This document shows positions 17,305-30,743 of a stretch of 64,000 bases of DNA, piece by piece. Made by a program: the position numbers and the translations under genes. The notes under the pieces were generated by a model, which was given only the letters and a program-made list of their open reading frames with translations, searched no databases and was not told the DNA's origin. Source of the DNA: a virus. The stretch lies in IMG/VR virus record IMGVR_UViG_3300036770_005682, positions 73,812 to 137,811 of that record; one strand, written 5' to 3'. Positions within the stretch are counted from its first letter, which is position 1, and each line of letters begins with the position of its first letter.

Positions 17305-17790
17305 CGGCTCAAAGTCACCGAAAGCCGTCGGGCGACCTGCCGGAAGAACTCCAACTGACCGGCGATGCTGGCTCAACAGTCCCGTATAGCTCTTAGAGCT
17401 CTACGGGGCTAACGCGGCGGGAAGAAGGTTTCCTGCGGGAAGTTCCGCAACCTAACACGAAAAACTCAAAAGTCAAGTTTTTGGAACCTTGAAAATAAAG
17501 GATTTCAAGTTTTGGGTTTTTGAAAATAAAAAACAAGAAACTGAAAACTCGGTTTTGCCGTCGGCACGAGTGCCATCTGAGTCCCCGTGCGGCTGACCTC
17601 GGCAGCCCCGCCGCCAGCATCTCAAAAAGATTTGACGGTGGCGGAAGAGCGGGTTCGGGTCAGGGTTTTGTGCCAAACCTAGACGCTCAGAACGGCTCAG
17701 GCTGAAACGGGGTCACCGATACCGCAGAAGAGGACGAACTCCCGTGAGAGGGCGTGTGAGGGGGCTATCCGAGGCGTTTAGGGGCATGGC

Positions 17791-17821
17791 AAAGCCGACC
17801 CACCCAACTGGCAGGTCGGCT
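17791..17821 (-). terminator. intrinsic terminator
   Basis: AGCCGACC/GGTCGGCT stem followed by TT on the - strand. Confidence 0.55.
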
Positions 17822-17834
17822 CAACCGATAACTA

Positions 17835-17885
17835 CTAGACGAAGAACAGCGCAGTCAAGGCGATGACTACAACGATGGCGGTCAT
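17835..17885 (-). CDS. 16-aa hydrophobic micropeptide MTAIVVVIALTALFFV
   Basis: ATGA overlap with the stop of the upstream gene; followed by a terminator. Confidence 0.6.
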   Translation of the reverse strand: MTAIVVVIALTALFFV

Positions 17886-18154
17886 GCTTGGGGAATACCC
17901 AAAGCGGCGAGCGTTGGGTGCGTTGAGTGTGTTTCTCCCTGTGCGTCTACCCACACAACAACATCACGACGAGGTGGTTCTTGCCCGCATGGGTAAAAGG
18001 CTGCCTTGTGCCAACCCTTAGAGCCACAGTTGTCGCAGTAGCGTTCCCAGTCTTGCGGGTCGTCCCACCACGCATGAGTTGCGTAGTTCGCATCTGCTTC
18101 TTCTTGTGTCCCAGCGAAAGGGACTGGTTCGTTTATGAGTTGGATTACCTTCAT
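17882..18154 (-). CDS. hypothetical protein with CDNC motif, leaderless
   Basis: ATG is 7 nt downstream of a TACACT -10 element. Confidence 0.75.
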   Translation of the reverse strand: MKVIQLINEPVPFAGTQEEADANYATHAWWDDPQDWERYCDNCGSKGWHKAAFYPCGQEPPRRDVVVWVDAQGETHSTHPTLAALGIPQA

Positions 18155-18161
18155 GTTGTGA

Positions 18162-18190
18162 AGTGTACCTAGCACATCGCAGAAAGTCAA
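18162..18190 (-). promoter_or_regulatory. sigma-A promoter (leaderless)
   Basis: TTGACT-17-TACACT. Confidence 0.8.
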
Positions 18191-18364
18191 GCGATGTCGG
18201 AAGAAACTTTCGAGACCTTCCTGGACGCCTGGCTGATGAACCCGATAGTCCCGTATCCCCAAGATGGGTATACGGGGCTGATGGCACGGGAAGGAAAACT
18301 TCCGGAGTTGACTTTTCACGGGCGGCTTGTTAGGTTATGCGTTTTGGTGTTTTGAGGTTTTTCA

Positions 18365-18407
18365 CCACTTTTAGTGGTTTTTGAGCAAAGTTCGCCACGG
18401 AAAGTGG
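18365..18407. repeat. paired CCAC-N5-GTGG palindromes within A/T tracts (copy 1)
   Basis: CCACTTTTAGTGG at 18365 and CCACGGAAAGTGG at 18395, starts 30 bp apart. Confidence 0.75.
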
Positions 18408-18540
18408 CGATTCCGAGAAAAACAACAAAACAACAACGAAGTTCTCGCCCGCCGAACGTGCGCTGAGCCGACATCAACTGGGTCGTCTGCGGGGCTGATG
18501 ACCCAGTCACATTTACGACGGTGGCGGAAGACGGGCAACA

Positions 18541-18570
18541 AGAAAGCCCGCCCCCTTTCGGAGACGGGCT
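18541..18570 (-). terminator. intrinsic terminator
   Basis: AGCCCG...CCGAAAGG...CGGGCT then TTCT on the - strand. Confidence 0.65.
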
Positions 18571-18575
18571 CTTGG

Positions 18576-18626
18576 TCAAACTGCCAGCAGAAGAACAACT
18601 GCCAGCGTAATCACTAACGCTGTCAC
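18576..18626 (-). CDS. 16-aa hydrophobic micropeptide MTALVITLAVVLLLAV
   Basis: GTG 2 nt after the upstream stop, GAGGGG SD, followed by a terminator. Confidence 0.55.
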   Translation of the reverse strand: MTALVITLAVVLLLAV

Positions 18627-18628
18627 TC

Positions 18629-18826
18629 TTAGTTTGTGTCCCCCTCTTCGGGGGAAACGATGTAATCAACATCGCCCCAAACTATTTCGTGCTCTCGCAC
18701 TGCTTTTACTTTTCCCAATTCGTTGGTGATGAGGTCAAGGTATGCCTCCACCTTCGCTTCTGCTTCACTTTCTGACTTTGCGTCAAAAGTGTGAACCATC
18801 AGCGTGATGTTCGCTATGTATTTCAC
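18629..18826 (-). CDS. hypothetical protein, leaderless GTG start
   Basis: GTG 6 nt after a TACATT -10. Confidence 0.7.
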   Translation of the reverse strand: MKYIANITLMVHTFDAKSESEAEAKVEAYLDLITNELGKVKAVREHEIVWGDVDYIVSPEEGDTN

Positions 18827-18832
18827 AGGTGG

Positions 18833-18877
18833 AATGTACACCCTGTACAACACAACGTCAATGTGTTCTGCGTCACA
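18833..18877 (-). promoter_or_regulatory. sigma-A promoter with abutting CRP-like box
   Basis: TTGACG-17-TACATT; TGTGT-N6-TCACA at 18862-18877. Confidence 0.75.
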
Positions 18878-19088
18878 CCTACGTCCAGCCGATGACCTGT
18901 CGTTGCTGTGAGATGTCAGCCGCCGCAGCGATGACCAGCATCTCGTGGGCTGAGCCCCAGGTGGGCAAAAGCCCCGATGGGGTAATACCCCAGCACGGGG
19001 CTGCCAGGCGCAACCGGCCGGAAGGCCTCGATGGCCGGCCCTCCCCGAGTTATTCGAATAAGTTTTGGTCTTTGTCGAGCAAAAACGA

Positions 19089-19131
19089 CCACTTTTTGTG
19101 GTTTTTGGATAAATCCGACCACGGAAAGTGG
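19089..19131. repeat. paired CCAC-N5-GTGG palindromes within A/T tracts (copy 2)
   Basis: CCACTTTTTGTGG at 19089 and CCACGGAAAGTGG at 19119, starts 30 bp apart. Confidence 0.75.
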
Positions 19132-19286
19132 TTTTTCCTAAAACTAAAACGGAAAAGTCGAGCTCAGCTCCTCGAGCTCACGTAGCTTCGCCAGCTATGC
19201 GGGGTTGTGGGGCGGGGCTCACAACCCCGACGCATCTACTTTGACGGTGGCGGAAGACGGCTAGCGCACCTGAGCCGAGACAGCAA

Positions 19287-19325
19287 CAAGCCCGCCGTGC
19301 GGGGGGAAGGGGCACGGCGGGCTTG
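19287..19325 (-). terminator. terminator-like hairpin with C-rich loop
   Basis: CAAGCCCGCCGTGC/GCACGGCGGGCTTG stem; loop CCCTTCCCCCC on the - strand. Confidence 0.65.
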
Positions 19326-19344
19326 TGCGATTGGTGAGAATGGA

Positions 19345-19707
19345 CTACTTCCAGCAGGCAGCGGAATAGACGACTTCGCTCAGGTTGTCGCAATAGACAT
19401 CAAGCACTTCGTGCTCAACGACTAGCGTACCTTTCGCTTCGCCACGGTTCACGAGTCGGACACGGCGCACTTCGTACAGGTCTAGGTAGTTGAGTACCAC
19501 CTCAACCGCACGACTCTCTCCGCACAGCATTAGCAAGCCAATGGTCACGCCATCGCTAGCGTTCACCTTTGCCCACTTTCCACCGCACACAGCGAGAAAG
19601 GTCATCTTGCCCATTTGGGCTATGACCTCTTGCGGGTCGCAGTCACGACCTGAACGGTCAAGGTTGCGCAAGGCAATCAGAGACAGGTCGGTTTTCGTTG
19701 CTTTCAT
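19345..19707 (-). CDS. hypothetical protein
   Basis: GAAAGGGGG SD; 120 aa ending DVYCDNL.E.VY. Confidence 0.8.
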   Translation of the reverse strand: MKATKTDLSLIALRNLDRSGRDCDPQEVIAQMGKMTFLAVCGGKWAKVNASDGVTIGLLMLCGESRAVEVVLNYLDLYEVRRVRLVNRGEAKGTLVVEHEVLDVYCDNLSEVVYSAACWK

Positions 19708-19730
19708 TTCTTCACCCCCTTTCACCTTGC

Positions 19731-19775
19731 AGGGTACAAGTCGCAAGTGGGTAAGTCAATAGGACAAGTGTCACA
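19731..19775 (-). promoter_or_regulatory. sigma-A promoter with abutting CRP-like half-match
   Basis: TTGACT-17-TACCCT; TAGGA-N6-TCACA at 19760-19775. Confidence 0.7.
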
Positions 19776-19786
19776 CTCGCCAGCCA

Positions 19787-19834
19787 GCCCGCCCGCACGC
19801 CCGCCCGCACGCCCGCCCGCACGCCCGTACGCAC
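19787..19834 (+). repeat. 12-bp tandem repeat GCCCGCCCGCAC x3 plus one variant
   Basis: Read directly. Confidence 0.9.
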
Positions 19835-19925
19835 GCGCGCGTAAGAGTCCCGGACGGGATTTATTCCCGACGGGGCTCCCGCACGGGATTGACGGTGGTG
19901 GAAGAGTTCCGATGCGGGCACAAAC

Positions 19926-19955
19926 AAAATGCCCGCCCCCTTGCGGAGACGGGCA
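19926..19955 (-). terminator. intrinsic terminator
   Basis: TGCCCG...CGGGCA then TTTTG on the - strand; near copy of the 18541 hairpin. Confidence 0.65.
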
Positions 19956-19972
19956 GTTCGTTGGAGTTTCAG

Positions 19973-20329
19973 TTAGCGGTCTGGATTCGGCGTTGCCTTC
20001 ACCGTAAAAGTTCCGCTTGCATCGTGGTGGGCGAGGTGGCAAGTGAGCACTTTCGTTTCAGGGTCAAGCGAGTAACGCAATGACCATTCCGAACGGACAG
20101 TGATACTTTCCAACAACTTCATCGGAGTATCGGCGTGGAAAATGCCGTCTATCGTGCGTGCCCACAAAGGGAATCCTTCAATGCGCCACCAAGTGTCGCC
20201 TTCGTGAAGTTCCTTGTTGTGTTCAAGCATGACTTCGGCAGTCATGGCAAACAAGTCTGTCGCCATGTCCCACTCCCACTCTTCGGAAGTGTTGCTTACC
20301 TCTTCCCACTCCAAGTCGGAGTCAAGCAT
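19973..20329 (-). CDS. hypothetical protein
   Basis: GAAAGGGGGG SD; 118 aa with C-terminal HHD motif. Confidence 0.8.
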   Translation of the reverse strand: MLDSDLEWEEVSNTSEEWEWDMATDLFAMTAEVMLEHNKELHEGDTWWRIEGFPLWARTIDGIFHADTPMKLLESITVRSEWSLRYSLDPETKVLTCHLAHHDASGTFTVKATPNPDR

Positions 20330-20359
20330 GACTCCCCCCTTTCATGAGTTGAGAATGAC

Positions 20360-20414
20360 AGACTACCGACTTAGTAGCGATTAGTCAAGTAGGCATCGTG
20401 TGACATTAGGCACT
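20360..20414 (-). promoter_or_regulatory. sigma-A promoter with upstream CRP-like box
   Basis: TTGACT-17-TAGTCT; TGTGA-N6-GCACT at 20399-20414. Confidence 0.7.
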
Positions 20415-20654
20415 TCCGAGTAAGACGATAAGAATAAGGACTACAAAGATAGGCACTAATGACATGACAGCAACTTACCGCACCTGAGCCGAAAAAACAA
20501 CAACCCGATGTCGGCGATGTCGGGATGGGACGGGAGCCCCGGAGGCCCGCTGCCGGCCCACGGGGCTAACGGGTATCCGACGGTGGCGGAAGAAGGGCTC
20601 GCACTTCTCGTCGGGCTGACTTGGTCTGCTCAGTTTCAGTCGTGCTGTTTCGTG

Positions 20655-20731
20655 CGAACGCCTGTTCGGGTCGTGAGACGCTCTGCCCCTGTGTGTCTCA
20701 TGCGAACACCTGTTCGGCGAACATCTGTTCT
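20655..20731. promoter_or_regulatory. three LexA (SOS) boxes CGAAC-N4-GTTCG
   Basis: CGAACGCCTGTTCG 20655, CGAACACCTGTTCG 20703, CGAACATCTGTTCT 20718. Confidence 0.75.
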
Positions 20732-20774
20732 GTGACAAACGACACTTGCAATGTGTCCTTGACACCTGTACCCT
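20731..20774 (+). promoter_or_regulatory. sigma-A promoter with abutting CRP-like box
   Basis: TGTGA-N6-ACACT at 20731-20746; TTGCAA-17-TACCCT. Confidence 0.7.
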
Positions 20775-20908
20775 ACTAGGTGGGACAACCTGCCCGCCTA
20801 GCCTGTGGTGAAGCGACCTGCGTCACGGGGGGAACTAGAAAAGGTAGGGGGTGCGCCGTAGGGAAGGCGTACCTGTCCCACTCAACATAAGAACCGAGAA
20901 GGGGAACC

Positions 20909-21085
20909 ATGACACGCAAAGATTATGTCTTGCTTGCCAGTCATCTCCGCTACGCTCGTACGGGCGTTTCCGTCTCTCTGCTTGCAGGGTTTGACGAAGC
21001 CGTAGAAGCAATAGCGGACGCACTCGCAAGTGAGAACCACCGTTTTGACCGCGATAAGTTTTTGGAAGCGGTGAACCCGAACTAA
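20909..21085 (+). CDS. small phage protein (58 aa, MTRKDY...ENHRFDRDKFLEA)
   Basis: Read manually; GAAGGGG SD; resembles a common MTRKDY/N.RFD..KF small phage-protein pattern. Confidence 0.8.
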   Translation: MTRKDYVLLASHLRYARTGVSVSLLAGFDEAVEAIADALASENHRFDRDKFLEAVNPN

Positions 21086-21109
21086 ACATTCCCAACACCA
21101 CAGGCACAG

Positions 21110-21141
21110 AAAGCCCCATGCCGTTTGGCGTGGGGCTTTTT
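21110..21141 (+). terminator. intrinsic terminator
   Basis: AAAGCCCCATGCC-GTTT-GGCGTGGGGCTTTTT. Confidence 0.8.
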
Positions 21142-21322
21142 GTTTGCCCTCAACTCCCAGTCGGAACACCTCGCCAGATGGCTTTGATGGCATCTGGTAG
21201 CCCCGGAAGCCGTGCGGCAGCAACGGGGCTCCCACAGGAGTGCGACGGTGGTGGAAGTCCCCTGGTCTCCGCCTCTCCTCGCCTACCTCGCCCGCTGTCA
21301 TCATTCGTCTGTCTCAAACTGA

Positions 21323-21367
21323 TGTGACAAACGTCATGTTGTGATGTGTACCTGACAGGTGTAGTGT
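21323..21367 (+). promoter_or_regulatory. sigma-A promoter (leaderless) with abutting CRP-like box
   Basis: TGTGA-N6-TCATG at 21323-21338; TTGTGA-17-TAGTGT; ATG 7 nt later. Confidence 0.7.
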
Positions 21368-21374
21368 GCTATGT

Positions 21375-21962
21375 ATGGAAACAGCAACGAAGGAAGCCAT
21401 AGCACTACGGGTGCTTGCCGAATACTGGCAGACAGATGTAGCCCCAATGGTGAACCCACGAGCCTGTGTGCTTGCTGGACGCTTGGCGACTGTTGTGCTT
21501 GGTCGCATCGGCATTTCCACCGCCGTCTACCACACCGACACCGTTGCTATGAATGACCTGTGGTACAACCTGTTCATCGTCAAGGGGCTTGGTCAGCAGT
21601 TCCTTCCCCCTGAGGCATGGTGTGTTGGTGCTGTCACCGCAGATGTCAAGGGAACGCACAGCACGATGGTTGGCGGTTTCAGCGGTCACCTTGTTGTGAC
21701 AACCCCGCACCACTTTGTAGACCTGAGCGCAAGCCAGTTTGACCGTCCCTCACATGACATCGTGACTGGCTCGCCACTCATCGTCCCCCGTGAGAACATC
21801 ACAGACACGCCACATGGCAAGATGGTTCCGATACAGCGTGGTGTTTACATCACGAAGCCTGCCGAGAACCCTGCGTCATACCAATGGACACCCGACTGGC
21901 AGACCAACTACAAGACCTTTGCGAAGCCACTCATCACCCGCCTGCGGGAGATGTTCTCGTGA
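21375..21962 (+). CDS. hypothetical protein, possible Cys-His-Asp transglutaminase-like fold
   Basis: ACV.A...GHLVV....VDLSA.QF pattern. Confidence 0.7.
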   Translation: METATKEAIALRVLAEYWQTDVAPMVNPRACVLAGRLATVVLGRIGISTAVYHTDTVAMNDLWYNLFIVKGLGQQFLPPEAWCVGAVTADVKGTHSTMVGGFSGHLVVTTPHHFVDLSASQFDRPSHDIVTGSPLIVPRENITDTPHGKMVPIQRGVYITKPAENPASYQWTPDWQTNYKTFAKPLITRLREMFS

Positions 21963-22216
21963 CCGTACGAGACTGGTACGAGTTTGTGGAAACGGACTTG
22001 GAGAACTACGAGCGTGAGAAGTTTCGTGAGATGCTGTCCGACATCGGCTTTGATGACCTGTATGTGGAACGCACCGATGACCACGGCATTTGCTACTTGT
22101 GCGAGCGTGATGGAGTGTTGTACCTTGTAATGAACAGAGGACAACTGCGTGAGACAAATGCCTACTACCTTTGCTCTACCTGTACTAACGAGATGAAGCG
22201 AAAGACCGAAGAATGA
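21959..22216 (+). CDS. Zn-finger hypothetical protein
   Basis: GTGA overlap; CYLC...CSTC. Confidence 0.7.
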   Translation: MTVRDWYEFVETDLENYEREKFREMLSDIGFDDLYVERTDDHGICYLCERDGVLYLVMNRGQLRETNAYYLCSTCTNEMKRKTEE

Positions 22217-22371
22217 CCGGAATGTTGTATTCGCAGCGCAACGCACACTCATGCCCGTGGGGGTGCTGTGGCGATTTCGTCAAGGGTCGTGGAACGAAGC
22301 ACCGCTGTAAGAAGTGGCATCGCATCTTGCGTACCCGTGAGAAGCGCAACTGGAAGAAAGAGGAATGGTGA
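22213..22371 (+). CDS. small basic Cys-containing protein (52 aa)
   Basis: Read manually; ATGA overlap; CPWGCC, R.REKR.WKK. Confidence 0.65.
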   Translation: MTGMLYSQRNAHSCPWGCCGDFVKGRGTKHRCKKWHRILRTREKRNWKKEEW

Positions 22372-22838
22372 CTGCACCCGAATACGAAAGTTGGTGGGAC
22401 AGCGATGCTGGCAAGCCCGCCAGTCTCTGCGATGCCTGCGGGCAGAAGCAACTACTAACCCAACAGACATCGCCCGCCCTTCCTGATGGGGGCTGGATTA
22501 TGGAGTTTGAGCATTTCGGCTATTACGGCGGGTTCTCTGACGACATTGAGGTTGCGTTTGGCAAGCGAGACAGTAACTCATGGTCGCTTTGCCATGACTG
22601 CGTTGTGAAGTTCTTTGAGACATTCCCTGCGCTAGCGGAGAAGTTCGGTCGGGGGCACCACCCCAACTTCATTCACACAGACGACCTGCCGTACAGTGAG
22701 CGAGGCACATCTAGCCCGTCATGCTGTCGCTTTGCGTGGACATGGAATGTGACCGTTGAGAACGGAGAGAAGGTCTACGAGACTTTCTACGGAGATGGCA
22801 CAGGTGGCTGGGTTGCCCAGTCTAAGGAGCGAGTCTGA
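22365..22838 (+). CDS. Zn-binding hypothetical protein
   Basis: CDAC...GYYGGF.D...LCHDC. Confidence 0.75.
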   Translation: MVTAPEYESWWDSDAGKPASLCDACGQKQLLTQQTSPALPDGGWIMEFEHFGYYGGFSDDIEVAFGKRDSNSWSLCHDCVVKFFETFPALAEKFGRGHHPNFIHTDDLPYSERGTSSPSCCRFAWTWNVTVENGEKVYETFYGDGTGGWVAQSKERV

Positions 22839-22888
22839 TGGTTGTCAGCATCGTCGCCCTGATAGCCATCCTTCTGCTGTTGTCCTAG
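22838..22888 (+). CDS. 16-aa hydrophobic micropeptide MVVSIVALIAILLLLS
   Basis: TGATG overlap with the upstream stop, AAGGAG SD, last gene of the operon. Confidence 0.6.
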   Translation: MVVSIVALIAILLLLS

Positions 22889-23097
22889 AACAGCATTTCC
22901 CCGCTACTGCCCTCTTTCTTTTTTCTGCTTGTCTCTGTCTCTACGCAGATGGAGTGGGCGTACTTGTGCTGGTTCTTCACGCCCCTGATGCCTGTGTTGT
23001 TGTCACGCACCCACGCCAACACGAGTTTCATAGTTCCACTTTGGTTCGGAACTACCTCTTGGTCACAGAACTCACATCGGAAGCGAACGTACGACAT
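22885..23097 (-). CDS. small Zn-binding protein, leaderless
   Basis: CEFC...HSIC; TTGCGC-17-TATTAT (23133-23105) then ATG 7 nt later. Confidence 0.7.
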   Translation of the reverse strand: MSYVRFRCEFCDQEVVPNQSGTMKLVLAWVRDNNTGIRGVKNQHKYAHSICVETETSRKKKEGSSGEMLF

Positions 23098-23183
23098 TAT
23101 GGAAATAATACCGGCCGGGGCTCCCGAGCGCAACAGCATCTTCTTTGACGGTGGTGGAAGAAGCCCCTGAACGGGGACAGCAG

Positions 23184-23213
23184 AAAGCCCACACCCGTTT
23201 CCGAGTGTGGGCT
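23184..23213 (-). terminator. intrinsic terminator
   Basis: AGCCCACAC/GTGTGGGCT stem, TTCT on the - strand. Confidence 0.65.
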
Positions 23214-23236
23214 GACTGTTGGAAGCGAGTTGTGCG

Positions 23237-23692: not shown

Positions 23693-23722
23693 TTGTTCCC
23701 CTTTCGTAGTGGTGACAGTTAC

Positions 23723-23767
23723 ACACTACACAGAACACAAACAAATGTCAATGTGTCGTTAGGCACA
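23723..23767 (-). promoter_or_regulatory. sigma-A promoter with abutting CRP-like box
   Basis: TTGACA-17-TAGTGT; TGTGT-N6-GCACA at 23752-23767. Confidence 0.75.
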
Positions 23768-23958
23768 GCCGGCAAGTCCAAACTTTGACCGAGTCCAAAC
23801 TTTGAGCAGGTCAAGACCGACAAACCGGAACGCCGGTGACATCTGGGGCTGAGAGCCCCGCGCCCCGCCGCAGCCCAACGGGGCTCCACACCACTTTGAC
23901 GGTGGCGGAAGAAGCCCTCGTGTGCGCCTGCGTGTGTGCGCCTGCGTGTGTGCGTGAA

Positions 23959-24013: not shown

Positions 24014-24045
24014 CAACAACACCTACTAACCGAAGGGACGGAACA

Positions 24046-24630: not shown

Positions 24631-24848
24631 TGACCCCCGTACATGACCTTGTGCTGCGCTTCATGCGCTCAAACCTCATTGGCAAGCGTGTCACTTTGTT
24701 GTTCACTTCCGACCCCTACACCAACCTCACACGGGGTGATGAAGGCGTTGTGGACTACATTGACGACATTGGTACTGTGTTCGTCAAGTGGGACAACGGC
24801 TCTCGCTTGGGTCTTGTGGAAGGAGAAGATTTGTGGACATACAACTGA
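24630..24848 (+). CDS. DUF4314-like SH3-fold protein
   Basis: G.RV.L....DPY..L..G..G.V..IDD.GT..V.WDNGS.LGL..GED. Confidence 0.75.
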   Translation: MTPVHDLVLRFMRSNLIGKRVTLLFTSDPYTNLTRGDEGVVDYIDDIGTVFVKWDNGSRLGLVEGEDLWTYN

Positions 24849-25087
24849 CAGATGAATGGGCTGACATCTCTATTGCTGAGTTGGCTGACCTCATGGAAGA
24901 GAACTACTACCTGCTCGCAAGTACGGGTCAGGACGCTTTTTTGGCGTTCGCAGATGATGTGTTGCGTGGTGCGTTCACCGAGTATCACGGCATGAGCGAG
25001 GAACGGACTGCTTTGCTCATGGTTGAGTTTGTCAAGCGTATGGTTCTTGTGTGGGACAAGCCTGCCGTGCCTTACGAGGTGCGCTAA
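24833..25087 (+). CDS. hypothetical protein
   Basis: AAGGAG SD before GTG 24833. Confidence 0.65.
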   Translation: MDIQLTDEWADISIAELADLMEENYYLLASTGQDAFLAFADDVLRGAFTEYHGMSEERTALLMVEFVKRMVLVWDKPAVPYEVR

Positions 25088-25152
25088 TGCTGTGGTTTAT
25101 CGGTATGTCGGCACTCGCTAGTCTTATTTTGTACCTGCGCTTCTCTGACTAA
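25087..25152 (+). CDS. 21-aa hydrophobic micropeptide MLWFIGMSALASLILYLRFSD
   Basis: TAATG overlap, GAGG SD, last gene before hairpins. Confidence 0.55.
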   Translation: MLWFIGMSALASLILYLRFSD

Positions 25153-25200
25153 GTTCTCCAACAGGGGTAATCCGTCCCCCCTTTCACCTCTGTTGGACTG

Positions 25201-25244
25201 AAACCCCCAAGTCGTGTCTCACGCTGGCACGGCTTGGGGGTTTT
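25201..25244 (+). terminator. intrinsic terminator
   Basis: AAACCCCCAAG...CTTGGGGGTTTT. Confidence 0.75.
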
Positions 25245-25380
25245 CTCATGTCCGAACTTCGGTGGCCATCTACGGCCAGCATCACAGATGGTAAATACGA
25301 CCCGCCGGGGCTCCCGCCCGCCCGCCCGTCACTACTTTGACGGTGGCGGAAGAGCAGGGACACGAGAGTGGGTACACGAG

Positions 25381-25417
25381 AAAGGGGTCGCCCACCGCAT
25401 TTGGCAGGCGACCCCTT
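25381..25417 (-). terminator. intrinsic terminator
   Basis: AAGGGGTCGCC/GGCGACCCCTT stem. Confidence 0.65.
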
Positions 25418-25435
25418 AGCAGGGACGGTCAGTTG

Positions 25436-26011
25436 TCAGTTCTGCGAGTTCTGATAGGCGTGACACGCCTTCGTGAAGGCACGGAAGATGTCGGAGACAA
25501 CGCCGTGGAGTTCTCCATCAGCGATGTCAGGCTCGTCATACACAGGCAGTCCGTTGTCGTCATAGCGATAGAACACGGTCGCACCGATGGGTTCTCCGTC
25601 CCACGGATACACGCTGACGATGATGCCTTCACGAACATCGGTGGAAGGGTTCGTCTTGTATTCCTCTTCGTACGCACCACGGTCGTGATTTTCCAACTCT
25701 TCTTCGGTCACACTTCCAGCAGGCTTGGCGTAGCCTTCCACGATGTAGGCGAGCCACTTCCAGCGAACAGACTGAAAGTTGTCCACCATTCCTTCTGCGA
25801 GTCCTGACAACATCAACGGCAAGGTGTCGGTCGGGTGTCCTTCCATCAGGTCGGGCATAATGAAGCCGTCACCGCTCGGCAGTTCACCAACAAGGGTGGG
25901 CGGTGCGTCCGTTATCCCTTTGTTCTCTTCACAGATGCCGTACTTGGCTTCCATCGCACGGGCAACGACAGCCAACAGAATGTCTGTTGGCGTCATCTCT
26001 TCTTCTTCCAT
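25436..26011 (-). CDS. hypothetical protein
   Basis: 191 aa, AAGGGG SD, own promoter and terminator. Confidence 0.8.
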   Translation of the reverse strand: MEEEEMTPTDILLAVVARAMEAKYGICEENKGITDAPPTLVGELPSGDGFIMPDLMEGHPTDTLPLMLSGLAEGMVDNFQSVRWKWLAYIVEGYAKPAGSVTEEELENHDRGAYEEEYKTNPSTDVREGIIVSVYPWDGEPIGATVFYRYDDNGLPVYDEPDIADGELHGVVSDIFRAFTKACHAYQNSQN

Positions 26012-26046
26012 TTGGTTCCCCCTTATGGGTAGTAGGTACAGGTGTC

Positions 26047-26090
26047 AGTTTATGGTGTGTCCAACCTGTTGTCAAGTGCCATCGGTCACA
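26047..26090 (-). promoter_or_regulatory. sigma-A promoter with abutting CRP-like box
   Basis: TTGACA-17-TAAACT; AGTGC-N6-TCACA at 26075-26090. Confidence 0.75.
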
Positions 26091-26253
26091 CGCCTGAAAC
26101 TTGGAGTCAGTCCAAAGTTTGAGCAAGTCCAGCCCGCACCACGAGCCAGAAGGTCTGGCTGAGGGCAGAAGCCCCGCGCCCCGATGCTGCCGTCCGGGGC
26201 TCATCAGCCTGACGGTGGCGGAAGAAGCCCCTGCGCCCTGTACCCTGTACCGT

Positions 26254-26415
26254 ATGGGTCGGCGTAAGCACATCGCACAACCGAAATGGACGGCAGACGA
26301 GCGCACAGCGTTCGGTGATGGGGTGCGTACACGAGCAAGCACCGTGCCTGACAAGCGCAAGCGGGAGAGCAAGCGAGCCTGCCGACAGCCTGTGACGGAC
26401 GACACAGAGAAATAG
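26254..26415 (+). CDS. small basic protein
   Basis: TACCCT 7 nt before ATG; RA.TVPDKRK..SK.ACR. Confidence 0.6.
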   Translation: MGRRKHIAQPKWTADERTAFGDGVRTRASTVPDKRKRESKRACRQPVTDDTEK

Positions 26416-26484
26416 TTGCTTTTCGTGTGTGGGGTGTGTAGTGTTCCCCTTGTACCTGACACCCACAGCAGGAAGCGATAAGGG

Positions 26485-26539
26485 TGTGGCGAATGTCACA
26501 CAAGAACCTATTGACAAGTGCTTGTGTCCCCTGTAAGGT
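26485..26539 (+). promoter_or_regulatory. sigma-A promoter with upstream CRP-like box
   Basis: TGTGG-N6-TCACA at 26485-26500; TTGACA-17-TAAGGT. Confidence 0.75.
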
Positions 26540-26577
26540 ACACATTGTCCACAAGTCCCCAAACAAGAAAGAAGGAA

Positions 26578-27000
26578 ATGACCGTGGCACACTCAGTAGA
26601 GCAGGCAACCCGCCTGTACCTGTTGGCAAAGGAAGCCAGCGCACAAGCGGAAGCACAGAAGAAGGAAGCGGAACAGGCGTTGCGTGAGGCACTCGCCATC
26701 GCAGGCATCAGCGCAAGCGTGGTGGACGGCATCAAGGTCGCCATCGTGGAAGGCGAGCGCAAGTCCTACGACGCAGACAAGTTGGCGATGCTCGTGAAGC
26801 CCGCCACCTACAAGAAGGTCACCAAGCCCGTCGTGGACGGGGAGATGCTCGCAAGCGCAGTCAGCGTTGGCATCATCTCGCAGGAAGTGGCAGACACCAT
26901 CACAAAGGTCACCACCTACTCGCAGGTGCGTACCACCGCCGTCTCGCCCGATGCGAAGGCGAAGTCCCTGTCCGACAACGGCAAGGCGCAGGTCGCCTAG
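26578..27000 (+). CDS. coiled-coil protein (architecture reminiscent of Mu Gam/Gp157-like proteins)
   Basis: AAAGAAGG SD; N-terminal helix then KVTK.VVD...L segment; family is a guess. Confidence 0.7.
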   Translation: MTVAHSVEQATRLYLLAKEASAQAEAQKKEAEQALREALAIAGISASVVDGIKVAIVEGERKSYDADKLAMLVKPATYKKVTKPVVDGEMLASAVSVGIISQEVADTITKVTTYSQVRTTAVSPDAKAKSLSDNGKAQVA

Positions 27001-27141
27001 CACCCACAAGTCTCGTGTGGGGTGGGAGACACCGCAGATGCTCGCCCACCCCACACAAGAAAGTGGCTACGCAGGTTGTGACTATCAACCGAAGTGGCTA
27101 CACTCCACAACACCAACAACTCCCACGAAAGGGGAACCCCA

Positions 27142-27882
27142 ATGACAAGTGTGGCAGACACACAAGAGACACTTCCCGCCTGTTGGCAGGAAGTCCACGA
27201 TGCGCTGGAAGCGGGCATTGACCGCCTTATCCTGTTCGGCGTTCCAGGAACAGGCAAGACCTACGCAGGTCTGAACTACGGCAACACCGATGCGGGTGCG
27301 TTCCGTCTCATCTGTACCGATGACATGACCAACGCCGATGTGACAGGGTGCTGGCAACCCAATGACCACGGCTCGTGGTCGTGGCTGGAAGGCTCGGCTA
27401 TCCGTGCGTGGAAAGGCGATGGCACAGTCGGTGGTCGTCTCGTCATTGACGAGATAGACAAGGCTGGTGGCGATGTGTTCGCTACCCTGCTTGCGATGAC
27501 CGACAGCCCTGAGAGCGCAAAGTGGGAACACCCGCACACCCGCAAGGTGTTGCGCCCCAACGCAGGTTTCAGCGTGGTGATGACCACCAACATTGAGCAG
27601 ATGAGCGACCTGCCGATGGCACTCAAAGACCGTTTCCCCGTGTGCGTCCGTATCAACGAACCGCACCCGTCAGCACTCGCCCGTCTGAGCGAGGACTTGC
27701 GTGACTACGCCCGTCAGATGGCAGACGCAGGCGAACGCCGTATCTCTCTCCGTGCGTTCTACGCCTTTGACCAACTGCGTACCGCACTCGGCACGAAGCG
27801 GGCGGCGCAGATGGTGTTCCGTGACCGTGCTAAGAGCGTGGTGGACGCTATCGCCATCAACACCATGACCCCGCAGAAGTAG
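27142..27882 (+). CDS. MoxR/CbbQ-type AAA+ ATPase
   Basis: GVPGTGKT Walker A, LVIDEID Walker B, MTTN sensor, ALKDRF. Confidence 0.9.
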   Translation: MTSVADTQETLPACWQEVHDALEAGIDRLILFGVPGTGKTYAGLNYGNTDAGAFRLICTDDMTNADVTGCWQPNDHGSWSWLEGSAIRAWKGDGTVGGRLVIDEIDKAGGDVFATLLAMTDSPESAKWEHPHTRKVLRPNAGFSVVMTTNIEQMSDLPMALKDRFPVCVRINEPHPSALARLSEDLRDYARQMADAGERRISLRAFYAFDQLRTALGTKRAAQMVFRDRAKSVVDAIAINTMTPQK

Positions 27883-27887
27883 GGGTC

Positions 27888-29420
27888 ATGTCCAAGAGCA
27901 ACGAAACGCCTGTTGAGGCGACCATCAAGAAAGGCGCAACGCCACAGTATCCCGAACCTGAGATGCTGTCTCGTGGTGACCTGACTGCCACAACCGACAA
28001 CAAGCGTTGGAACATCGTGAATGTCCAACCTGTGCGTGGCGAGCCAATGACGGAAGTGACGCACCGTGAGATGCGTGTGCCGATGTACGACACCGAACAC
28101 TCACGCCACATACGGGCGCACGAGATGACCCACGCCAAAGTCTCGCCAACTGCGAAGCAGTTTGAGAAGTGGGTCGCTCGTGGCTACGCCAAGCCCGCAA
28201 CGCTCGTGCGCTGTGAGGAACTGCGTGTGAATGTGCTGTGCGCCCGTGCGGGCTTTGAGCCGATGACGCACCTGACGGACGGAAGCGAGTATCTCGCAGG
28301 CAAGCGCACAGCAGAGGCGAGCGACTTTCAGAGTGCCGTGCTGGACGCTATCTCGTTCCGTGGCACGGCAGGATACGCACCGTACTTGGAAGGGGTGAAG
28401 CAGGTGAAGCCGATGTGGGCAGACCTGCTGGAAGCCATCTCCAAGACGGGCGAGGACTACTTCACGAGCGTCACCGACAACCCACGCTCGCAACCGCAAC
28501 TGTGGGACACCCACAGCCGTCTCCACTTGTCAGGCTTTGGCTATGTGGAGAACTACGCCAAGTGGGTAGAAGAACAGGTGGGTGCGCTGTGCGACAACCC
28601 GACAGGCGAGCCACAACCACAGCCCGCAGGCAAGGAAGGCGAGGGCAAGGAAGGCGAGGGCAAGCAACCTGACAAGTCACCTGCCGAAGCAACTGCCAAC
28701 GCAGGTGAACGCCTGACGCAAGACCGGTGGGGTCGTGGCAGTATCCCGAAGCGTGGTCGTGCGACCTTGTGGGAAGAACTGCGTGTCGCCACGCCTGCGT
28801 TGGAACGGAATGTGATGGGTGCTATCGGGCGCAAGCGTGTGGCATCGCAGACAGGGCGCAACCCACGCCGTCTGTCTCGTATGCTCACCGACCCTGAGAA
28901 GCGCATCTTTGACCGCACCGTGAAAGGCGCAGGTGGCGTGGTACTCATTGACACAAGCGGGTCAATGTCGCTAGACCACGATGAAGTGATGGCGATGGTA
29001 CTGAACGCACCGTCAGCACTCGTGGCGCAGTATTCGGGTGGCAAGCCATCACGCCCCAACCTGTATGTGGTCGCCAACAAGGGCAAGTGTGTGAACCAAC
29101 TCCCGACACCGAATGGTGGGAACGGAATGGACGCACCCGCCTTGCGTTGGGCTATCTCCAAGCGTCAGCGCAACACCGCACCTATCATTTGGGTCACAGA
29201 TGGTGGGGTCACGGGCAAGGGCGATGGCTGGTACGAGGACTTGGCGATGGAATGTATCAACCTTGTGAAGCGTCACGGCATCTACACCGCCGAAACGCCT
29301 GAGCAGGCTATTGAGATGTTGCGGGCGATGTCAAAGGGCGAGAAGGTCAAGAGCATTGTGCCATCGCACCTGTCAGCCGTCTATCAGTCCATCACGGGTC
29401 ACGAACTGACCTTCCGCTAG
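27888..29420 (+). CDS. vWA-domain partner of the AAA ATPase, with N-terminal HExxH
   Basis: RAHEMTH; DTSGSM MIDAS, GGNG.D, VTDG. Confidence 0.85.
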   Translation: MSKSNETPVEATIKKGATPQYPEPEMLSRGDLTATTDNKRWNIVNVQPVRGEPMTEVTHREMRVPMYDTEHSRHIRAHEMTHAKVSPTAKQFEKWVARGYAKPATLVRCEELRVNVLCARAGFEPMTHLTDGSEYLAGKRTAEASDFQSAVLDAISFRGTAGYAPYLEGVKQVKPMWADLLEAISKTGEDYFTSVTDNPRSQPQLWDTHSRLHLSGFGYVENYAKWVEEQVGALCDNPTGEPQPQPAGKEGEGKEGEGKQPDKSPAEATANAGERLTQDRWGRGSIPKRGRATLWEELRVATPALERNVMGAIGRKRVASQTGRNPRRLSRMLTDPEKRIFDRTVKGAGGVVLIDTSGSMSLDHDEVMAMVLNAPSALVAQYSGGKPSRPNLYVVANKGKCVNQLPTPNGGNGMDAPALRWAISKRQRNTAPIIWVTDGGVTGKGDGWYEDLAMECINLVKRHGIYTAETPEQAIEMLRAMSKGEKVKSIVPSHLSAVYQSITGHELTFR

Positions 29421-29534
29421 ACCGCACAGGCGGACTGTTCCCCCACCCACAGGGACAGCCCGCCCAAGCGTGGCGGGCGGGTGGCACTTCCCCCTTTCAG
29501 TCACCCGCCCGCCTGAACACGAAAGAGAACGCAG

Positions 29535-29696
29535 ATGAAGTGGAACACCACAGCAGTCATGGGTCACATTGTTGAGACTGTGACCACCGAAGCAGACGAC
29601 ATTGACACCGCAACGGAGATGGCATACGACCTGCTGGAAGGCAAGGGCTATGACCTGTCAGCCTTTGACGAAGTGACAACGGAGAGCGAGCGATGA
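29535..29696 (+). CDS. small acidic protein (53 aa)
   Basis: Read manually (MKWNTTAVMGH...); ATGA overlap with the next gene. Confidence 0.65.
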   Translation: MKWNTTAVMGHIVETVTTEADDIDTATEMAYDLLEGKGYDLSAFDEVTTESER

Positions 29697-29953
29697 GCAA
29701 GTACCGTGTTCAGGTCATGGTCGGCGTAGATGTCTCAGCCGACACAGATGGCGAGGCGATGGTGAACGCCGTTGCGAAGGTGCGTGGCATTATCGGGGAG
29801 AACCCGACAGAGCCAATGCCGAAGGAAGCGTGGGTGACGGGCATCGCACTTGCCGACCCCGCACATTGGCATCACACGAGCGTTGAGGGGTACATGGTAT
29901 TCCGACAGCCCGACCGAGCCGAGGACAACTCTTTGACGGTGGCGGAAGACTAG
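29693..29953 (+). CDS. hypothetical protein; its 3' end encodes a motif copy (..SLTVAED)
   Basis: 86-aa ORF. Confidence 0.7.
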   Translation: MSKYRVQVMVGVDVSADTDGEAMVNAVAKVRGIIGENPTEPMPKEAWVTGIALADPAHWHHTSVEGYMVFRQPDRAEDNSLTVAED

Positions 29954-30177
29954 TCGCTGAACACTTTTTTGTCGTAGATGCGTAGGGCATTTACGGCAAG
30001 GCTGGTCACGGCGCACTTCCAGTAAGGTGCGTTCCAGTCTGTGATGTCAGACGAACGCAAGAACCACAGCACAACCCACAGCACTCCGCCGTAAATAGAA
30101 CCCGCAAGTCCAGCCCCTGCTAGCGTAACTAAGAACGCTGGTTTGGGGCTGTTTGTTATCTCAGGGTGTTTAGGCAT
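29950..30177 (-). CDS. small membrane protein
   Basis: MPKHPE start; FLVTLAGAGLAGSIYGGVLWVVLW transmembrane segment. Confidence 0.6.
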   Translation of the reverse strand: MPKHPEITNSPKPAFLVTLAGAGLAGSIYGGVLWVVLWFLRSSDITDWNAPYWKCAVTSLAVNALRIYDKKVFSD

Positions 30178-30544
30178 TGACGGTCTTGCCCAAGCGGTTG
30201 ATGATTTGGTGAACGCGCTGGCGCGACAACCCGTACTCATCACCGATGCTTTGGAGCGACCTGCCATTTTGACGGGCAACGAGCATGGCGTTGTCCCTGT
30301 CGGGATTACCTGATGGGCCGGGCTTACATGGCCCCCATGCCCACCCTGCGAACTTCTCCAACTGTGCGATGCGCTCAGGAGACAGAGTGCCTGCCCGATA
30401 CTTGATACGCACATAGGTCACCCATGACCCAAGTGAAACTGTCTCTCCGTCCACCGAACACTTGTACGAGGTCGGTACAAGGGCTGTTCCGTGTTCTGAA
30501 ACGTAGGTGGATAGTGCTTGAATGTTTTTGTCCCATCGGCTCAT
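30170..30544 (-). CDS. helicase-associated (HA) domain plus sigma70-region-4-like HTH
   Basis: W......L..Y...HG...VP..Y......LG.WV...R......L...RI..L; SLQSIG..YGLSRQRVHQI; leaderless after TAATGT. Confidence 0.8.
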   Translation of the reverse strand: MSRWDKNIQALSTYVSEHGTALVPTSYKCSVDGETVSLGSWVTYVRIKYRAGTLSPERIAQLEKFAGWAWGPCKPGPSGNPDRDNAMLVARQNGRSLQSIGDEYGLSRQRVHQIINRLGKTVNA

Positions 30545-30682
30545 AGTCTTGACATTACTCGACCGGCCACCGGCTGCGGCGGAACCGGCTTGACAGCCCC
30601 GCGATGCGGCCGCCAGCTTCCGGGGCCCCTGATGACGGTGGTGGAAGACAGGGCCGGCCCTCGAGAAAGTTTTCGCCACGTG

Positions 30683-30711: not shown

Positions 30712-30743
30712 GACGGCACCACTTCACAAGGAAGGAGAAGGAA

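What the first reader, a model, noticed from the sequence alone, without database searches (positions are those of the whole stretch)
17340..30670. Palindrome-purged genes alternate with palindrome-packed spacers next to the motif
Seen by eye: coding DNA in the cassettes almost lacks GGCC, CCGG, TCGA, AGCT, CGCG, TGCA and ACGT. Across the GC-rich 26.3-29.9 kb stretch I found one CCGG (about 28724). Synonymous choices such as ATT GAC GAG ATA GAC avoid TCGA and GATC. The spacers just upstream of the motif are dense in these sites: ACCGGCCGGAAGGCCTCGATGGCCGGCC (about 19013), TCGAGCTCAGCTCCTCGAGCTCACGTAGCT (about 19158), CCGGAGGCCCGCTGCCGGCC (about 20539), ACCGGCCGG (23110), TCGACCGGCCACCGG...GCGGCCGCCAGCTTCCGG (30559-30623). 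Outside this region (RNR gene, 33-36 kb) the sites are common. Known: first-entering phage DNA often avoids restriction sites. Inference: this is the first-injected DNA, and the motif-adjacent spacers are either shielded by a motif-bound protein or act as decoys or sensors for host restriction-modification enzymes.
Basis: partly seen in the sequence, partly recalled or inferred. Interest (0 to 1): 0.8.

Follow-up and report, generated by a model that had tools for sequence, protein, structure and literature searches.

The report
Restriction-site-free early gene island in phage
A 14-kb block of small early genes in an uncultured 138-kb phage has been kept almost free of the short palindromes that restriction enzymes cut, but the spacers said to be packed with such sites hold no more than chance predicts.

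Summary
The depletion is real and extreme. In window 16,881-30,740, the 11 lowest observed/expected values among all 136 tetramer classes are palindromes. Nineteen island genes hold 8 such sites against 254 expected under synonymous-codon permutation. Five interrupted 5-bp palindromes are also depleted, and 42 of 64 palindromic hexamers are absent. DNA not called as genes is depleted too. The rest of the genome avoids only GATC (0 sites) and GGCGCC.

The "palindrome-packed" spacers are not enriched. The 100 bp upstream of the 12 island motifs hold 40 sites against about 61 expected. They are only less purged, in GC-rich hairpins and repeated words that relatives conserve.

Relatives 70-90% identical keep the purge. 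One comparison has 543 differences and 1 site in each copy, against about 80 expected. Which palindromes are purged varies by lineage.

Best reading: selection against Type II restriction sites in the host-transcribed early region, the part exposed before counter-defence acts, as in T5 first-step-transfer DNA. Entry order is not shown. The shield, decoy or sensor idea is unsupported.

This scan found similar islands before on other DNA.

The parts
16881..30740 (.). Fully purged island. 12 of 16 tetramer palindromes are nearly absent, in genes and in most non-coding DNA. The left edge is sharp and lies in an intergenic gap.
   Evidence: The last ordinary sites on the left are TTAA at 16858 and 16873 and CCGG at 16880.
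30741..32270 (.). Graded right-hand tail. ACGT, TGCA, GGCC, CGCG and ATAT return, while TCGA, AGCT, CCGG, AATT, TTAA and TATA stay absent. All classes are normal after about 32.3 kb.
   Evidence: Site list. The syntenic relative G004 shows the same graded edge.
17634..35176 (+). 16 co-oriented copies of GACGGTGGYGGAAGA, starting at 17634, 18517, 19243, 19891, 20579, 21244, 23147, 23898, 25339, 26211, 29935, 30634, 32904, 33779, 34446 and 35162. Twelve lie in the island and four beyond it.
   Evidence: 16 matches against 0.00 expected in 100 shuffles. The 17-mer occurs in 88 IMG/VR stretches.
19013..19196 (.). Spacer with 18 residual sites: a CCGGCC/GGCCGG hairpin and repeated TCGAGCTC words. 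It lies between the terminator of gene 19345-19707(-) and the promoter of gene 18629-18826(-).
   Evidence: The homologous spacer of L013, L012 and L010 keeps the TCGAGCT/AGCT repeats.
30501..30687 (.). Spacer with 17 residual sites around motif 30634, at the right edge of the fully purged zone. It sits between a minus-strand gene (about 30170-30544) and gene 30744-30953(+).
   Evidence: TCGACCGG, CCGG, CGCG, GGCC and TCGA words are kept at matching places in L010, which is 76% identical over the 1,602 aligned bases of this stretch.
20539..20558 (.). Residual CCGG/GGCC sites inside the AGCCCCG...CGGGGCT hairpin 5' of motif 20579. Similar small clusters lie at 17340-17416, 18210-18305, 19834-19853, 23087-23118, 23769-23862, 25264-25308 and 26175-26197.
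17250..26539 (.). Sigma-70-like early promoters (TTGAC-N17-19-TAnnnT) directly before cassette genes. Examples: 17250-17278(-), 18162-18190(-), 18833-18861(-), 19731-19759(-), 20360-20388(-), 23723-23751(-), 23986-24013(+), 26047-26075(-), 26511-26539(+).
   Evidence: 13 of the 23 hits in the whole genome fall in genome 90,001-105,000.
27142..29420 (+). The two largest island genes: an AAA_5 (MoxR/CobS-like) ATPase at 27142-27882 and a 510-aa partner at 27888-29420. They hold 1 site of the purged words in 2.3 kb. The ATPase recurs in the purged stretches of distant relatives.
25436..26011 (-). Conserved acidic 191-aa early protein (pI 4.17) of unknown fold, with 0 purged-word sites.

Best explanation
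Window 16.9-30.7 kb is the phage's host-RNA-polymerase-transcribed early block. It consists of self-contained cassettes of small, mostly acidic proteins of unknown function. Ongoing selection keeps it free of nearly all 4-, 5- and 6-bp palindromes, the recognition sites of Type II restriction enzymes.

The other 121 kb avoid only GATC and GGCGCC and carry about 4,600 sites of the purged words. The island must therefore be the one part of the incoming genome that host endonucleases can reach before the phage's counter-measures act.

The simplest way to get this is staged genome entry, or early use, as in T5 first-step-transfer DNA or the leading region of T7-like phages. The island works first, its products disarm or outrun restriction, and the rest follows.

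Shown: the depletion, its specificity for palindromes, its reach into non-coding DNA, its maintenance by selection, its lineage-specific spectrum, and the early-promoter density.

Inferred: that restriction enzymes are the selecting agent (about 0.8), and that exposure is limited by order of entry (about 0.4).

The residual sites just 5' of the motif are not decoys. They sit in GC-rich hairpins and short repeated words that relatives conserve. There, regulatory function outweighs avoidance, and even there the sites are at or below chance.
For: - Palindrome specificity: the 11 lowest O/E values among 136 tetramer classes are all palindromes, and CCGG ranks 14th.
- Robust to protein sequence and codon usage: 8 sites against 254.
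- Only some interrupted palindromes are purged: GGNCC 0.10, CCNGG 0.16, TTNAA 0.20, GANTC 0.27, GCNGC 0.28. TGNCA (2.05), GTNAC (1.25) and ACNGT (1.02) are not. This fits specific enzymes, not a general dislike of symmetry.
- 42 of 64 palindromic hexamers are absent, leaving 22 present. Same-size windows of the rest of the genome hold a mean of 52.8 (minimum 49). CATG-core and GCGC-core hexamers give 1 against 10.2 and 3 against 14.5.
- Non-coding DNA is purged: +15..+115 of the motifs gives 7 against 43-53, -330..-100 gives 27 against 101-122, and all 12 words are low in the 5,773 bp not called as genes.
- Purifying selection: five aligned stretches against relatives. For example, 3,012 bp with 543 differences have 1 site in each copy, against 79.7 simulated (minimum 61 of 300).
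- Spectrum varies between relatives: TGCA, CATG, the AT-only words and GATC are purged in some and not in others.
- Early character: 13 of 23 promoter-like sites in 11% of the genome, and small proteins, 22 of 27 with pI at or below 5.56.
- No C5, N4/N6 or Dam methylase, no TGT and no thymidylate-synthase-like gene was found in the genome.
- Precedent: T5/BF23 resist Type I/II/III systems unless a site lies in the first-step-transfer DNA (PMC10644984, passages read; bioRxiv 10.1101/866236, passages). Murciavirus phages are sensitive only to motifs in the first-injected region (PMC12455610, abstract and passages).
Against: - Entry order is untested. The contig's only end repeat is 127 bp, all 19 runs found are kept as contigs, and no molecule ends were listed.
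- About 100 sites remain in the island's spacers. A cut there would break the DNA as surely as one in a gene.
- The terminase's nearest cultured relatives are psiM2 and Gordonia phages at about 42% identity. If it packages by the headful, no fixed leading end exists.
- Contig depths in two runs are alike inside and outside the island (13.7-14.9 against 16.8; 17.8-20 against 16.8-20). The island is therefore not a collapsed long terminal repeat of the T5 type.
- No anti-restriction protein was recognised. Pfam on 24 proteins or ORFs of window 17.9-36.2 kb and PHROGs on 10 gave no Ocr, ArdA or A1/A2 match. The one fold attempt gave nothing.
- The edge pattern (sharp on one side, graded on the other) is reversed relative to the motif direction in G002.
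Confidence: 0.6

Rival explanations
1. Exposure is limited in space, not time. The whole genome enters at once, but most of it is coated or enclosed by proteins ejected from the head. Only the early block is left bare so that host RNA polymerase can read it, and only bare DNA needs to lack sites.
For: This reading needs no fixed genome end, so it survives a headful terminase.
Against: No DNA-coating protein was identified, and no mechanism is known that would leave one 14-kb block bare. The sharp edges fall in ordinary intergenic gaps.
Confidence: 0.15
2. The island avoids the phage's own early nuclease(s), not the host's. An early enzyme that destroys host DNA at short palindromes would spare the only phage DNA present at that time. 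Davison proposed this idea for T5 A1.
For: The hypothesis is in print for T5 (10.1101/866236, passages read). The breadth of the purge (12 tetramers) is large for one host strain's enzymes.
Against: The purge spectrum differs between close lineages and even between cassettes. That fits a shifting set of host enzymes better than one phage enzyme. No nuclease was recognised among the island proteins scanned. This reading still needs staged entry to spare the rest of the genome.
Confidence: 0.08
3. Selection acts at cassette level, or the pattern reflects import history. The cassettes move between phages of many hosts and carry the site avoidance of their past. Alternatively, site-free cassettes are rescued more often by recombination from restricted genomes.
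For: ORF-precise cassette swaps and deletions occur in about 90%-identical relatives: 18630-18833 replaced, and 20894-21077 and 21944-22212 missing. Single cassettes in G002 and G005 have deviating spectra, for example bursts of GGCC, or of CGCG with TCGA. Island GC is 0.565 against 0.484 for the rest.
Against: The purge also covers conserved, vertically kept genes, such as the ATPase pair at 82% identity with 1 site in each copy. It covers spacers and ends at sharp common borders. A relic would decay at the divergence seen. One cut anywhere kills the genome, so cassette-level avoidance alone gives the phage nothing.
Confidence: 0.07
4. One reading: sites beside the motif are shielded by a motif-bound protein, or serve as decoys or sensors for host restriction-modification enzymes.
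For: Residual sites do cluster 25-100 bp upstream of the motif, here and at 49 motif copies in purged DNA of 21 other loci. Some words are conserved in homologous spacers.
Against: There is no enrichment: 40 against about 61, and 30 against 33-37. In the relatives O/E peaks at only 0.65-0.68. AT-only palindromes and GATC are absent from the spacers as well. Motif and purge are separable (G005). A handful of sites cannot titrate an enzyme.
Confidence: 0.03
5. The cause is unrelated to restriction. The island avoids DNA symmetry in general, for example to prevent cruciforms, hairpins in transcripts or stray regulator binding.
For: All purged words are symmetric. The island is densely transcribed.
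Against: Four tetramer palindromes and several interrupted ones are spared or even enriched: GTAC 1.21 and TGNCA 2.05. Four-base symmetry has no structural effect. The island's own spacers are rich in long hairpins.
Confidence: 0.02

Closest known systems
First-step-transfer (pre-early) DNA of phage T5, BF23 and other Tequintavirus
   Same: One block of small early genes must lack restriction sites, while the rest of the genome carries them with impunity. The block is dense in host-type promoters. Non-coding stretches rich in repeats and palindromes lie at its border (PMC10644984 and 10.1101/866236, passages read).
   Different: There is no sign of a long terminal repeat: contig depth is not doubled and the end overlap is only 127 bp. 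No A1/A2-like match was seen among the proteins scanned. The terminase is unrelated to the T5 type in the top rows. The purge is far wider, covering 12 tetramers, 5 interrupted pentamers and 42 of 64 hexamers. Two-step entry is not shown.
Leading (first-injected) early region of T7-like phages, e.g. Murciavirus (PMC12455610)
   Same: Only motifs in the first-entering, host-transcribed, highly variable early region decide sensitivity to restriction. That region holds anti-defence genes (abstract and passages read).
   Different: The published case concerns a single Type I motif in 40-kb podoviruses with their own RNA polymerase. Here a 138-kb genome has a broad Type II-style purge, and Pfam found no T7-like polymerase, though that search's control did not ring.
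Whole-genome restriction-site (palindrome) avoidance in phages
   Same: The same kind of selection. This genome shows it globally for GATC (0 against about 470) and GGCGCC (1 against 24-30). Relative G003 lacks ACGT, AGCT and TCGA completely, and nearly lacks CCGG (4 sites) and GGCC (10), over all 40 kb fetched.
   Different: Here most of the avoidance is confined to 10% of the genome, with a sharp border.
Similar islands noted earlier by this scan on other DNA (e1-5857633, e1-6150939, e1-5913258, e1-6100757, e1-6020518)
   Same: Blocks of early genes in uncultured freshwater phages of 76-140 kb, purged of short palindromes, with sharp edges and relatives sharing the trait (AI notes, not checked by me).
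   Different: Those are other genomes. Whether they belong to the same clade was not tested. This case adds the test of the motif-adjacent spacers.

Membership tests
Restriction-site avoidance maintained by selection | Depletion is specific to symmetric recognition words, not to composition or neighbouring words | tested here: met
   The 11 lowest of 136 tetramer classes are palindromes. Only some interrupted palindromes are depleted.
Restriction-site avoidance maintained by selection | Depletion survives a null that keeps protein sequence and codon usage | tested here: met
   8 sites against a mean of 254 (minimum 216 of 200 shuffles) in 19 genes. Controls give 311 against 459.
Restriction-site avoidance maintained by selection | Acts on DNA as such, including non-coding DNA | tested here: met
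   The exception is about 50-100 bp 5' of the motifs, which is at or just below chance.
Restriction-site avoidance maintained by selection | Kept through sequence divergence | tested here: met
   In four of five aligned stretches both copies hold fewer sites than any of 300 simulated descendants. In the 25335-26037 stretch the counts are 0 and 2, against a simulated mean of 23.9 (minimum 11). The exception is 29699-31307, which includes the site-rich 30.5-30.7 kb spacer: 29 and 21 sites against a mean of 59.4.
Restriction-site avoidance maintained by selection | Purged words match the restriction enzymes of the host population | not testable with these tools
   The host is unknown. TAnnnT -10 boxes, near-leaderless starts and actinophage-like primase and terminase hits only hint at Actinomycetota.
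T5-type first-step-transfer DNA | Lies in a long direct terminal repeat at a fixed physical end | tested here: inconclusive
   The end overlap is only 127 bp. Contig depths inside and outside the island are alike in runs X7 and X10, which argues against a collapsed repeat. There are no raw reads for ends.
T5-type first-step-transfer DNA | Two-step injection with an injection-stop region | not testable with these tools
   Needs infection experiments.
T5-type first-step-transfer DNA | Pre-early genes related to A1, A2 or dmp | tested here: inconclusive
   PHROGs on 10 of about 27 island proteins gave no such family. The others were scanned with Pfam only.
T5-type first-step-transfer DNA | Sites avoided inside the block but tolerated outside | tested here: met
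T7-type transcription-paced entry | Phage single-subunit RNA polymerase with its own promoters after a host-transcribed leading region | tested here: inconclusive
   PF00940 found nothing, but its control rang in no genome. The 15-bp motif could be such a promoter, but it also stands antisense to the minus-strand cassettes at 17-20.5 kb.
   40 against 60-62, and 30 against 33-37. O/E is at most 0.68 in 49 copies from 21 other loci.

The most novel reading that the evidence does not exclude
A large clade of uncultured freshwater phages, unrelated to T5 or T7 and perhaps infecting Actinomycetota, uses staged genome entry or staged exposure, and this can be read from sequence alone. The purged island marks the DNA that works before host restriction is disarmed. 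Its word-by-word spectrum records the restriction enzymes of the host population. Cassettes with deviating spectra mark recent imports from phages of other hosts.
Probability: 0.35. Interest if true: 0.6.

Novelty: new member of a known kind. Interest (0 to 1): 0.45.

Why it matters
If the island marks the first-exposed DNA, a plain count of short palindromes can find the early, anti-defence region in uncultured phages. It could also hint at how their DNA enters the cell. The purged words would give a testable list of the restriction enzymes their unknown hosts carry. For phage engineering, it shows which part of a genome must be kept site-free. The negative result also matters: the eye-catching site clusters beside the motif are a contrast effect plus conserved regulatory hairpins, not a new decoy system.

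Tried and rejected
1. Polar-entry idea. The thought was that a sharp left edge, a graded right edge and co-oriented motifs give the direction of entry. The syntenic relative G004 repeats the pattern. In G002, however, the graded edge lies on the other side relative to the motif direction. In G005 the island ends where the motif array begins. Dropped.

2. Physical ends. The contig's end repeat is 127 bp and G002's is 121 bp; I take such short overlaps to be what a circular assembly leaves. G005's head and tail share no repeat. All 19 runs are contigs only, and no molecule ends were listed. Unresolved.

3. Packaging type from the terminase. The best cultured hits are psiM2, psiM100 and Gordonia phages at about 40-42% identity. 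That is too distant to assign a type. That psiM2 packages by the headful is my recollection, not a call.

4. RNA families. Rfam at E up to 1 over 16.5-36.5 kb gave one chance-level row.

5. Structure of the spacers. Minimum-energy folds of -90..+15 have z between +0.7 and -2.8. 155 of 217 residual-site positions are paired, against 59% of all positions. This is only a weak lean.

6. Function of island proteins. Pfam and PHROGs named only the AAA_5 ATPase and DUF4314, plus a weak DUF1599 match just outside the island. The Atlas gave virus-only unnamed clusters, with distant VWA/CobT-like rows, for the 510-aa protein. The 191-aa acidic protein folds confidently (pLDDT 88.5). It has no Foldseek match at E up to 0.001, and its best VIA-align Z is 5.8 to pilin-like chains, within the stated noise.

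7. DNA modification as the protector of the rest of the genome. No match to PF00145, PF01555, PF02086, PF01702 or PF00303. Other chemistries are not excluded.

8. Phage polymerase or sigma factor for the motif. PF00940 gave no match and its control was silent. PF04542 gave no match.

9. My first gene model, trained on long structural genes, failed on the island. I retrained it on island ORFs. It still missed at least the minus-strand gene at about 30170-30544, so "not called" DNA is not all non-coding.

10. Literature. Two searches found no paper describing a near-total palindrome-free early island. They did find the T5 and Autographiviridae precedents. Supplements were closed and not seen. 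They may hold per-region site counts for T5-like phages.

Full report
**Source.** The window is the last 64 kb of a single 137,811-bp virus contig. IMG/VR classes the contig as having direct terminal repeats and as 100% complete. The repeat is 127 bp, which is what a circular assembly would leave (my inference), so the map is circular and the physical ends are unknown. There is no close cultured relative. megablast of 9.2 kb of the island against 50,697 phage records found nothing. The primase-helicase and terminase reach Arthrobacter, Gordonia and psiM2 phages at 30-42% identity.

**The observation: depletion.** Counts per kilobase show GATC absent from the whole window and most tetramer palindromes vanishing between 17 and 31 kb. 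Over the whole genome in 2-kb bins, O/E for the 16 tetramer palindromes (second-order Markov) is 0.22-0.48 only from window 16,190 to 30,190. It is 0.62-1.04 everywhere else.

Among all 136 reverse-complement classes of tetramers, the 11 lowest O/E values in the island are palindromes: GATC, TTAA, AATT, ATAT, TATA, CGCG, TGCA, AGCT, TCGA, GGCC and ACGT. CCGG ranks 14th. GTAC (1.21), CATG (0.75), GCGC (0.65) and CTAG (0.41) are spared. In the other 121 kb the same words have O/E of 0.53-1.19, except GATC at 0 of about 470.

Permuting synonymous codons within each of 19 predicted island genes (8,088 bp) gives a mean of 254 sites of the 12 purged words, with a minimum of 216 in 200 shuffles. Eight sites are observed. 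Eight control genes outside the island give 311 against 459.

The purge extends to some interrupted palindromes and not to others. GGNCC (0.10), CCNGG (0.16), TTNAA (0.20), GANTC (0.27) and GCNGC (0.28) are depleted. TGNCA (2.05), GTNAC (1.25), ACNGT (1.02) and AANTT (1.01) are not. Forty-two of 64 palindromic hexamers are absent, leaving 22 present. Same-size windows of the rest of the genome hold a mean of 52.8 and a minimum of 49. Even for the spared tetramers CATG and GCGC, the palindromic hexamers built on them are missing: 1 against 10.2 and 3 against 14.5.

**The observation: spacers.** Site by site, the island starts abruptly after CCGG at 16880. It is complete to about 30,740 and then fades. 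ACGT, TGCA, GGCC, CGCG and ATAT return first, and the rest return after about 32,270. The residual sites lie almost entirely outside the called genes. They cluster upstream of the 16-copy, one-strand motif GACGGTGGYGGAAGA.

These spacers are not enriched. The 100 bp before the 12 island motifs hold 40 sites, against 62.2 (dinucleotide shuffle) or 60.2 (mononucleotide shuffle). The GC-rich -75..-25 stretch holds 30, against 36.6 or 32.7. Two spacers supply 18 of the 40. Downstream of the motif (+15..+115) there are 7 sites against 43-53, and further upstream (-330..-100) there are 27 against 101-122. All 12 words are significantly low in the 5,773 bp that I did not call as genes. GATC, AATT, ATAT and TTAA stand at zero there. 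Some of that DNA is coding that my model missed.

So the island is purged as DNA. A 50-100-bp hairpin-rich segment before each motif is merely spared.

**Relatives.** The 17-mer motif occurs in 88 IMG/VR stretches. In each locus all copies point one way. Many loci lack GATC, and many are purged. In five whole records the motifs form one co-oriented array of 12-17 kb.

At 49 motif copies lying in purged DNA of 21 other loci, the same asymmetry holds. O/E is 0.45-0.68 at -100..-25 and 0.02-0.14 at +25..+250. The spacers are still never above chance.

The purge spectrum differs by lineage. One group matches this window. Another spares TGCA and over-uses CATG. A third keeps GATC and the AT-only words but lacks ACGT, AGCT, TCGA, CCGG and GGCC. 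One locus lacks CATG.

Island and motif array are separable. G004 is laid out like this window. In G002 a roughly 22-kb island lies mostly upstream of the array. In G005 all 5 motifs stand in unpurged DNA next to a roughly 20-kb island. G003 has no ACGT, AGCT or TCGA, and only 4 CCGG and 10 GGCC, over all 40 kb fetched. Single cassettes inside these islands show bursts of one word, for example 13 GGCC in 1 kb of G002 and 50 CGCG in 2 kb of G005. This points to separate histories.

**Selection.** The window was aligned to relatives and the observed substitution spectrum was re-applied at random positions. For 3,012 aligned bases with 543 differences, a descendant should carry about 80 sites (minimum 61 of 300 simulations). 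Each real copy has 1. Four further stretches give the same answer. Contigs of four freshwater runs from three further studies carry the island at about 85-99% identity, with ORF-precise cassette replacements and deletions.

**What the island is.** A pattern for TTGAC-N17-19-TAnnnT finds 23 sites in the genome. Thirteen of them lie in the 15 kb around the island, each just before a cassette gene. Several stand 5-7 bases before the start codon. The minus-strand cassettes at 17-20.5 kb end in hairpins that pair best on the minus strand (sequence reading).

The proteins are small, and 22 of 27 have a pI at or below 5.56. Only an AAA_5 ATPase, its 510-aa partner (distant VWA/CobT-like rows) and DUF4314 have any name. 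I recognised no methylase, TGT or hydroxymethylase-type gene anywhere in the genome.

**Why the spacers keep sites.** Homologous spacers of relatives keep the same words at the same places. TCGAGCT/AGCT repeats stand before the motif at 19243 and its counterpart in L013. There are runs of CCGGCA and of GGCCATCAG. The AGCCCCG...CGGGGCT stem recurs. TCGACCGG, CCGG, CGCG, GGCC and TCGA are kept around 30.6 kb in L010, which is 76% identical over that stretch. Residual-site positions are somewhat more often paired in predicted folds (155 of 217, against 59% overall). I read them as regulatory hairpins and binding words whose function outweighs avoidance. This is an inference.

**Mechanism.** The rest of the genome holds about 38 sites of the purged words per kilobase. 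Clearing the island can therefore help the phage only if the island is exposed when the rest is not.

The known case is T5/BF23. Sites count only in the first-step-transfer DNA (PMC10644984; 10.1101/866236). A 2025 study shows the same for one Type I motif in the first-injected region of T7-like Murciavirus phages. It notes that such avoidance would be pointless for headful packagers (PMC12455610).

I therefore favour staged entry or staged exposure. The weaknesses are stated plainly:
- No ends could be mapped.
- The terminase does not settle the packaging type.
- Contig depth argues against a T5-like collapsed terminal repeat.
- The remaining spacer sites would still be cuttable.

They are weighed in their own sections.

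**Novelty.** The principle is known. This is a much broader, sharply bounded example in an unrelated, uncultured clade. This scan has already reported similar islands on other DNA. Two literature searches found no description of such a near-total palindrome-free island. Supplements were not available.

Noticed in passing
whole genome G000 (window 1-64000 and the 73.8 kb before it): GATC is absent from all 137,811 bases (about 470-530 expected). GGCGCC occurs once in the 121 kb outside the island (24-30 expected), and GGTACC is low there (7 against 19-28). These look like the sites of enzymes the host always carries.
   Followed up: partly
window 18154-18190, 18826-18861, 17217-17278: The early promoters have a TAnnnT -10 box only 5-7 bases before the start codon, so these mRNAs may be leaderless. 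Together with actinophage-like primase and terminase hits, this hints at an actinobacterial host. The link from TAnnnT and leaderless starts to Actinomycetota is recalled, not tested.
   Followed up: no
window 18630-18833, 20894-21077, 21944-22212: In about 90%-identical contigs from other freshwater runs, single ORFs are replaced (227 other letters) or missing, with breakpoints at the ORF edges. The promoter, terminator and motif are kept.
   Followed up: partly
window 19778-19850: A tandem run of CGCCCGCCCGCA-like 12-mers ends in CGCGCGCG, just upstream of the motif at 19891.
   Followed up: no
window 18364-18426 and 19088-19150: A 63-nt direct repeat (73% alike) with two small ACCAC...GTGGT hairpins, standing in A/T-rich spacers that still lack every AT-only palindrome.
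   Followed up: no
window 33808-34293 (+): A 161-aa ORF with DUF1599, 'nucleotide modification associated domain 1' (23.6 bits in hmmscan; 24.9-25.9 bits in the genome search, at the cut-off of 25). It is the only hint of DNA or nucleotide modification found.
   Followed up: partly
window 50611-52092 (-): A full-length tryptophan halogenase (PF04820, E 2.4e-100) in a phage genome.
   Followed up: no
G000:30459-60796 (before the window): Giant head-module proteins carry Zeta-toxin kinase, DnaJ, NUDIX, HTH_23 and RNase_T exonuclease domains. The 2,459-aa protein has no Pfam match at all.
   Followed up: partly
window 25436-26011 (-): A conserved 191-aa acidic early protein (23 homologues, 47-89% identical) gives a confident model (pLDDT 88.5). 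It has no solved structure that clearly resembles it.
   Followed up: yes
L095+L096 (G003:64001-104000): A related 145-kb phage has no ACGT, AGCT or TCGA at all, and only 4 CCGG and 10 GGCC, over all 40 kb fetched. It keeps GATC and the AT-only palindromes. This is avoidance over a far longer stretch rather than in a sharply bounded island.
   Followed up: no
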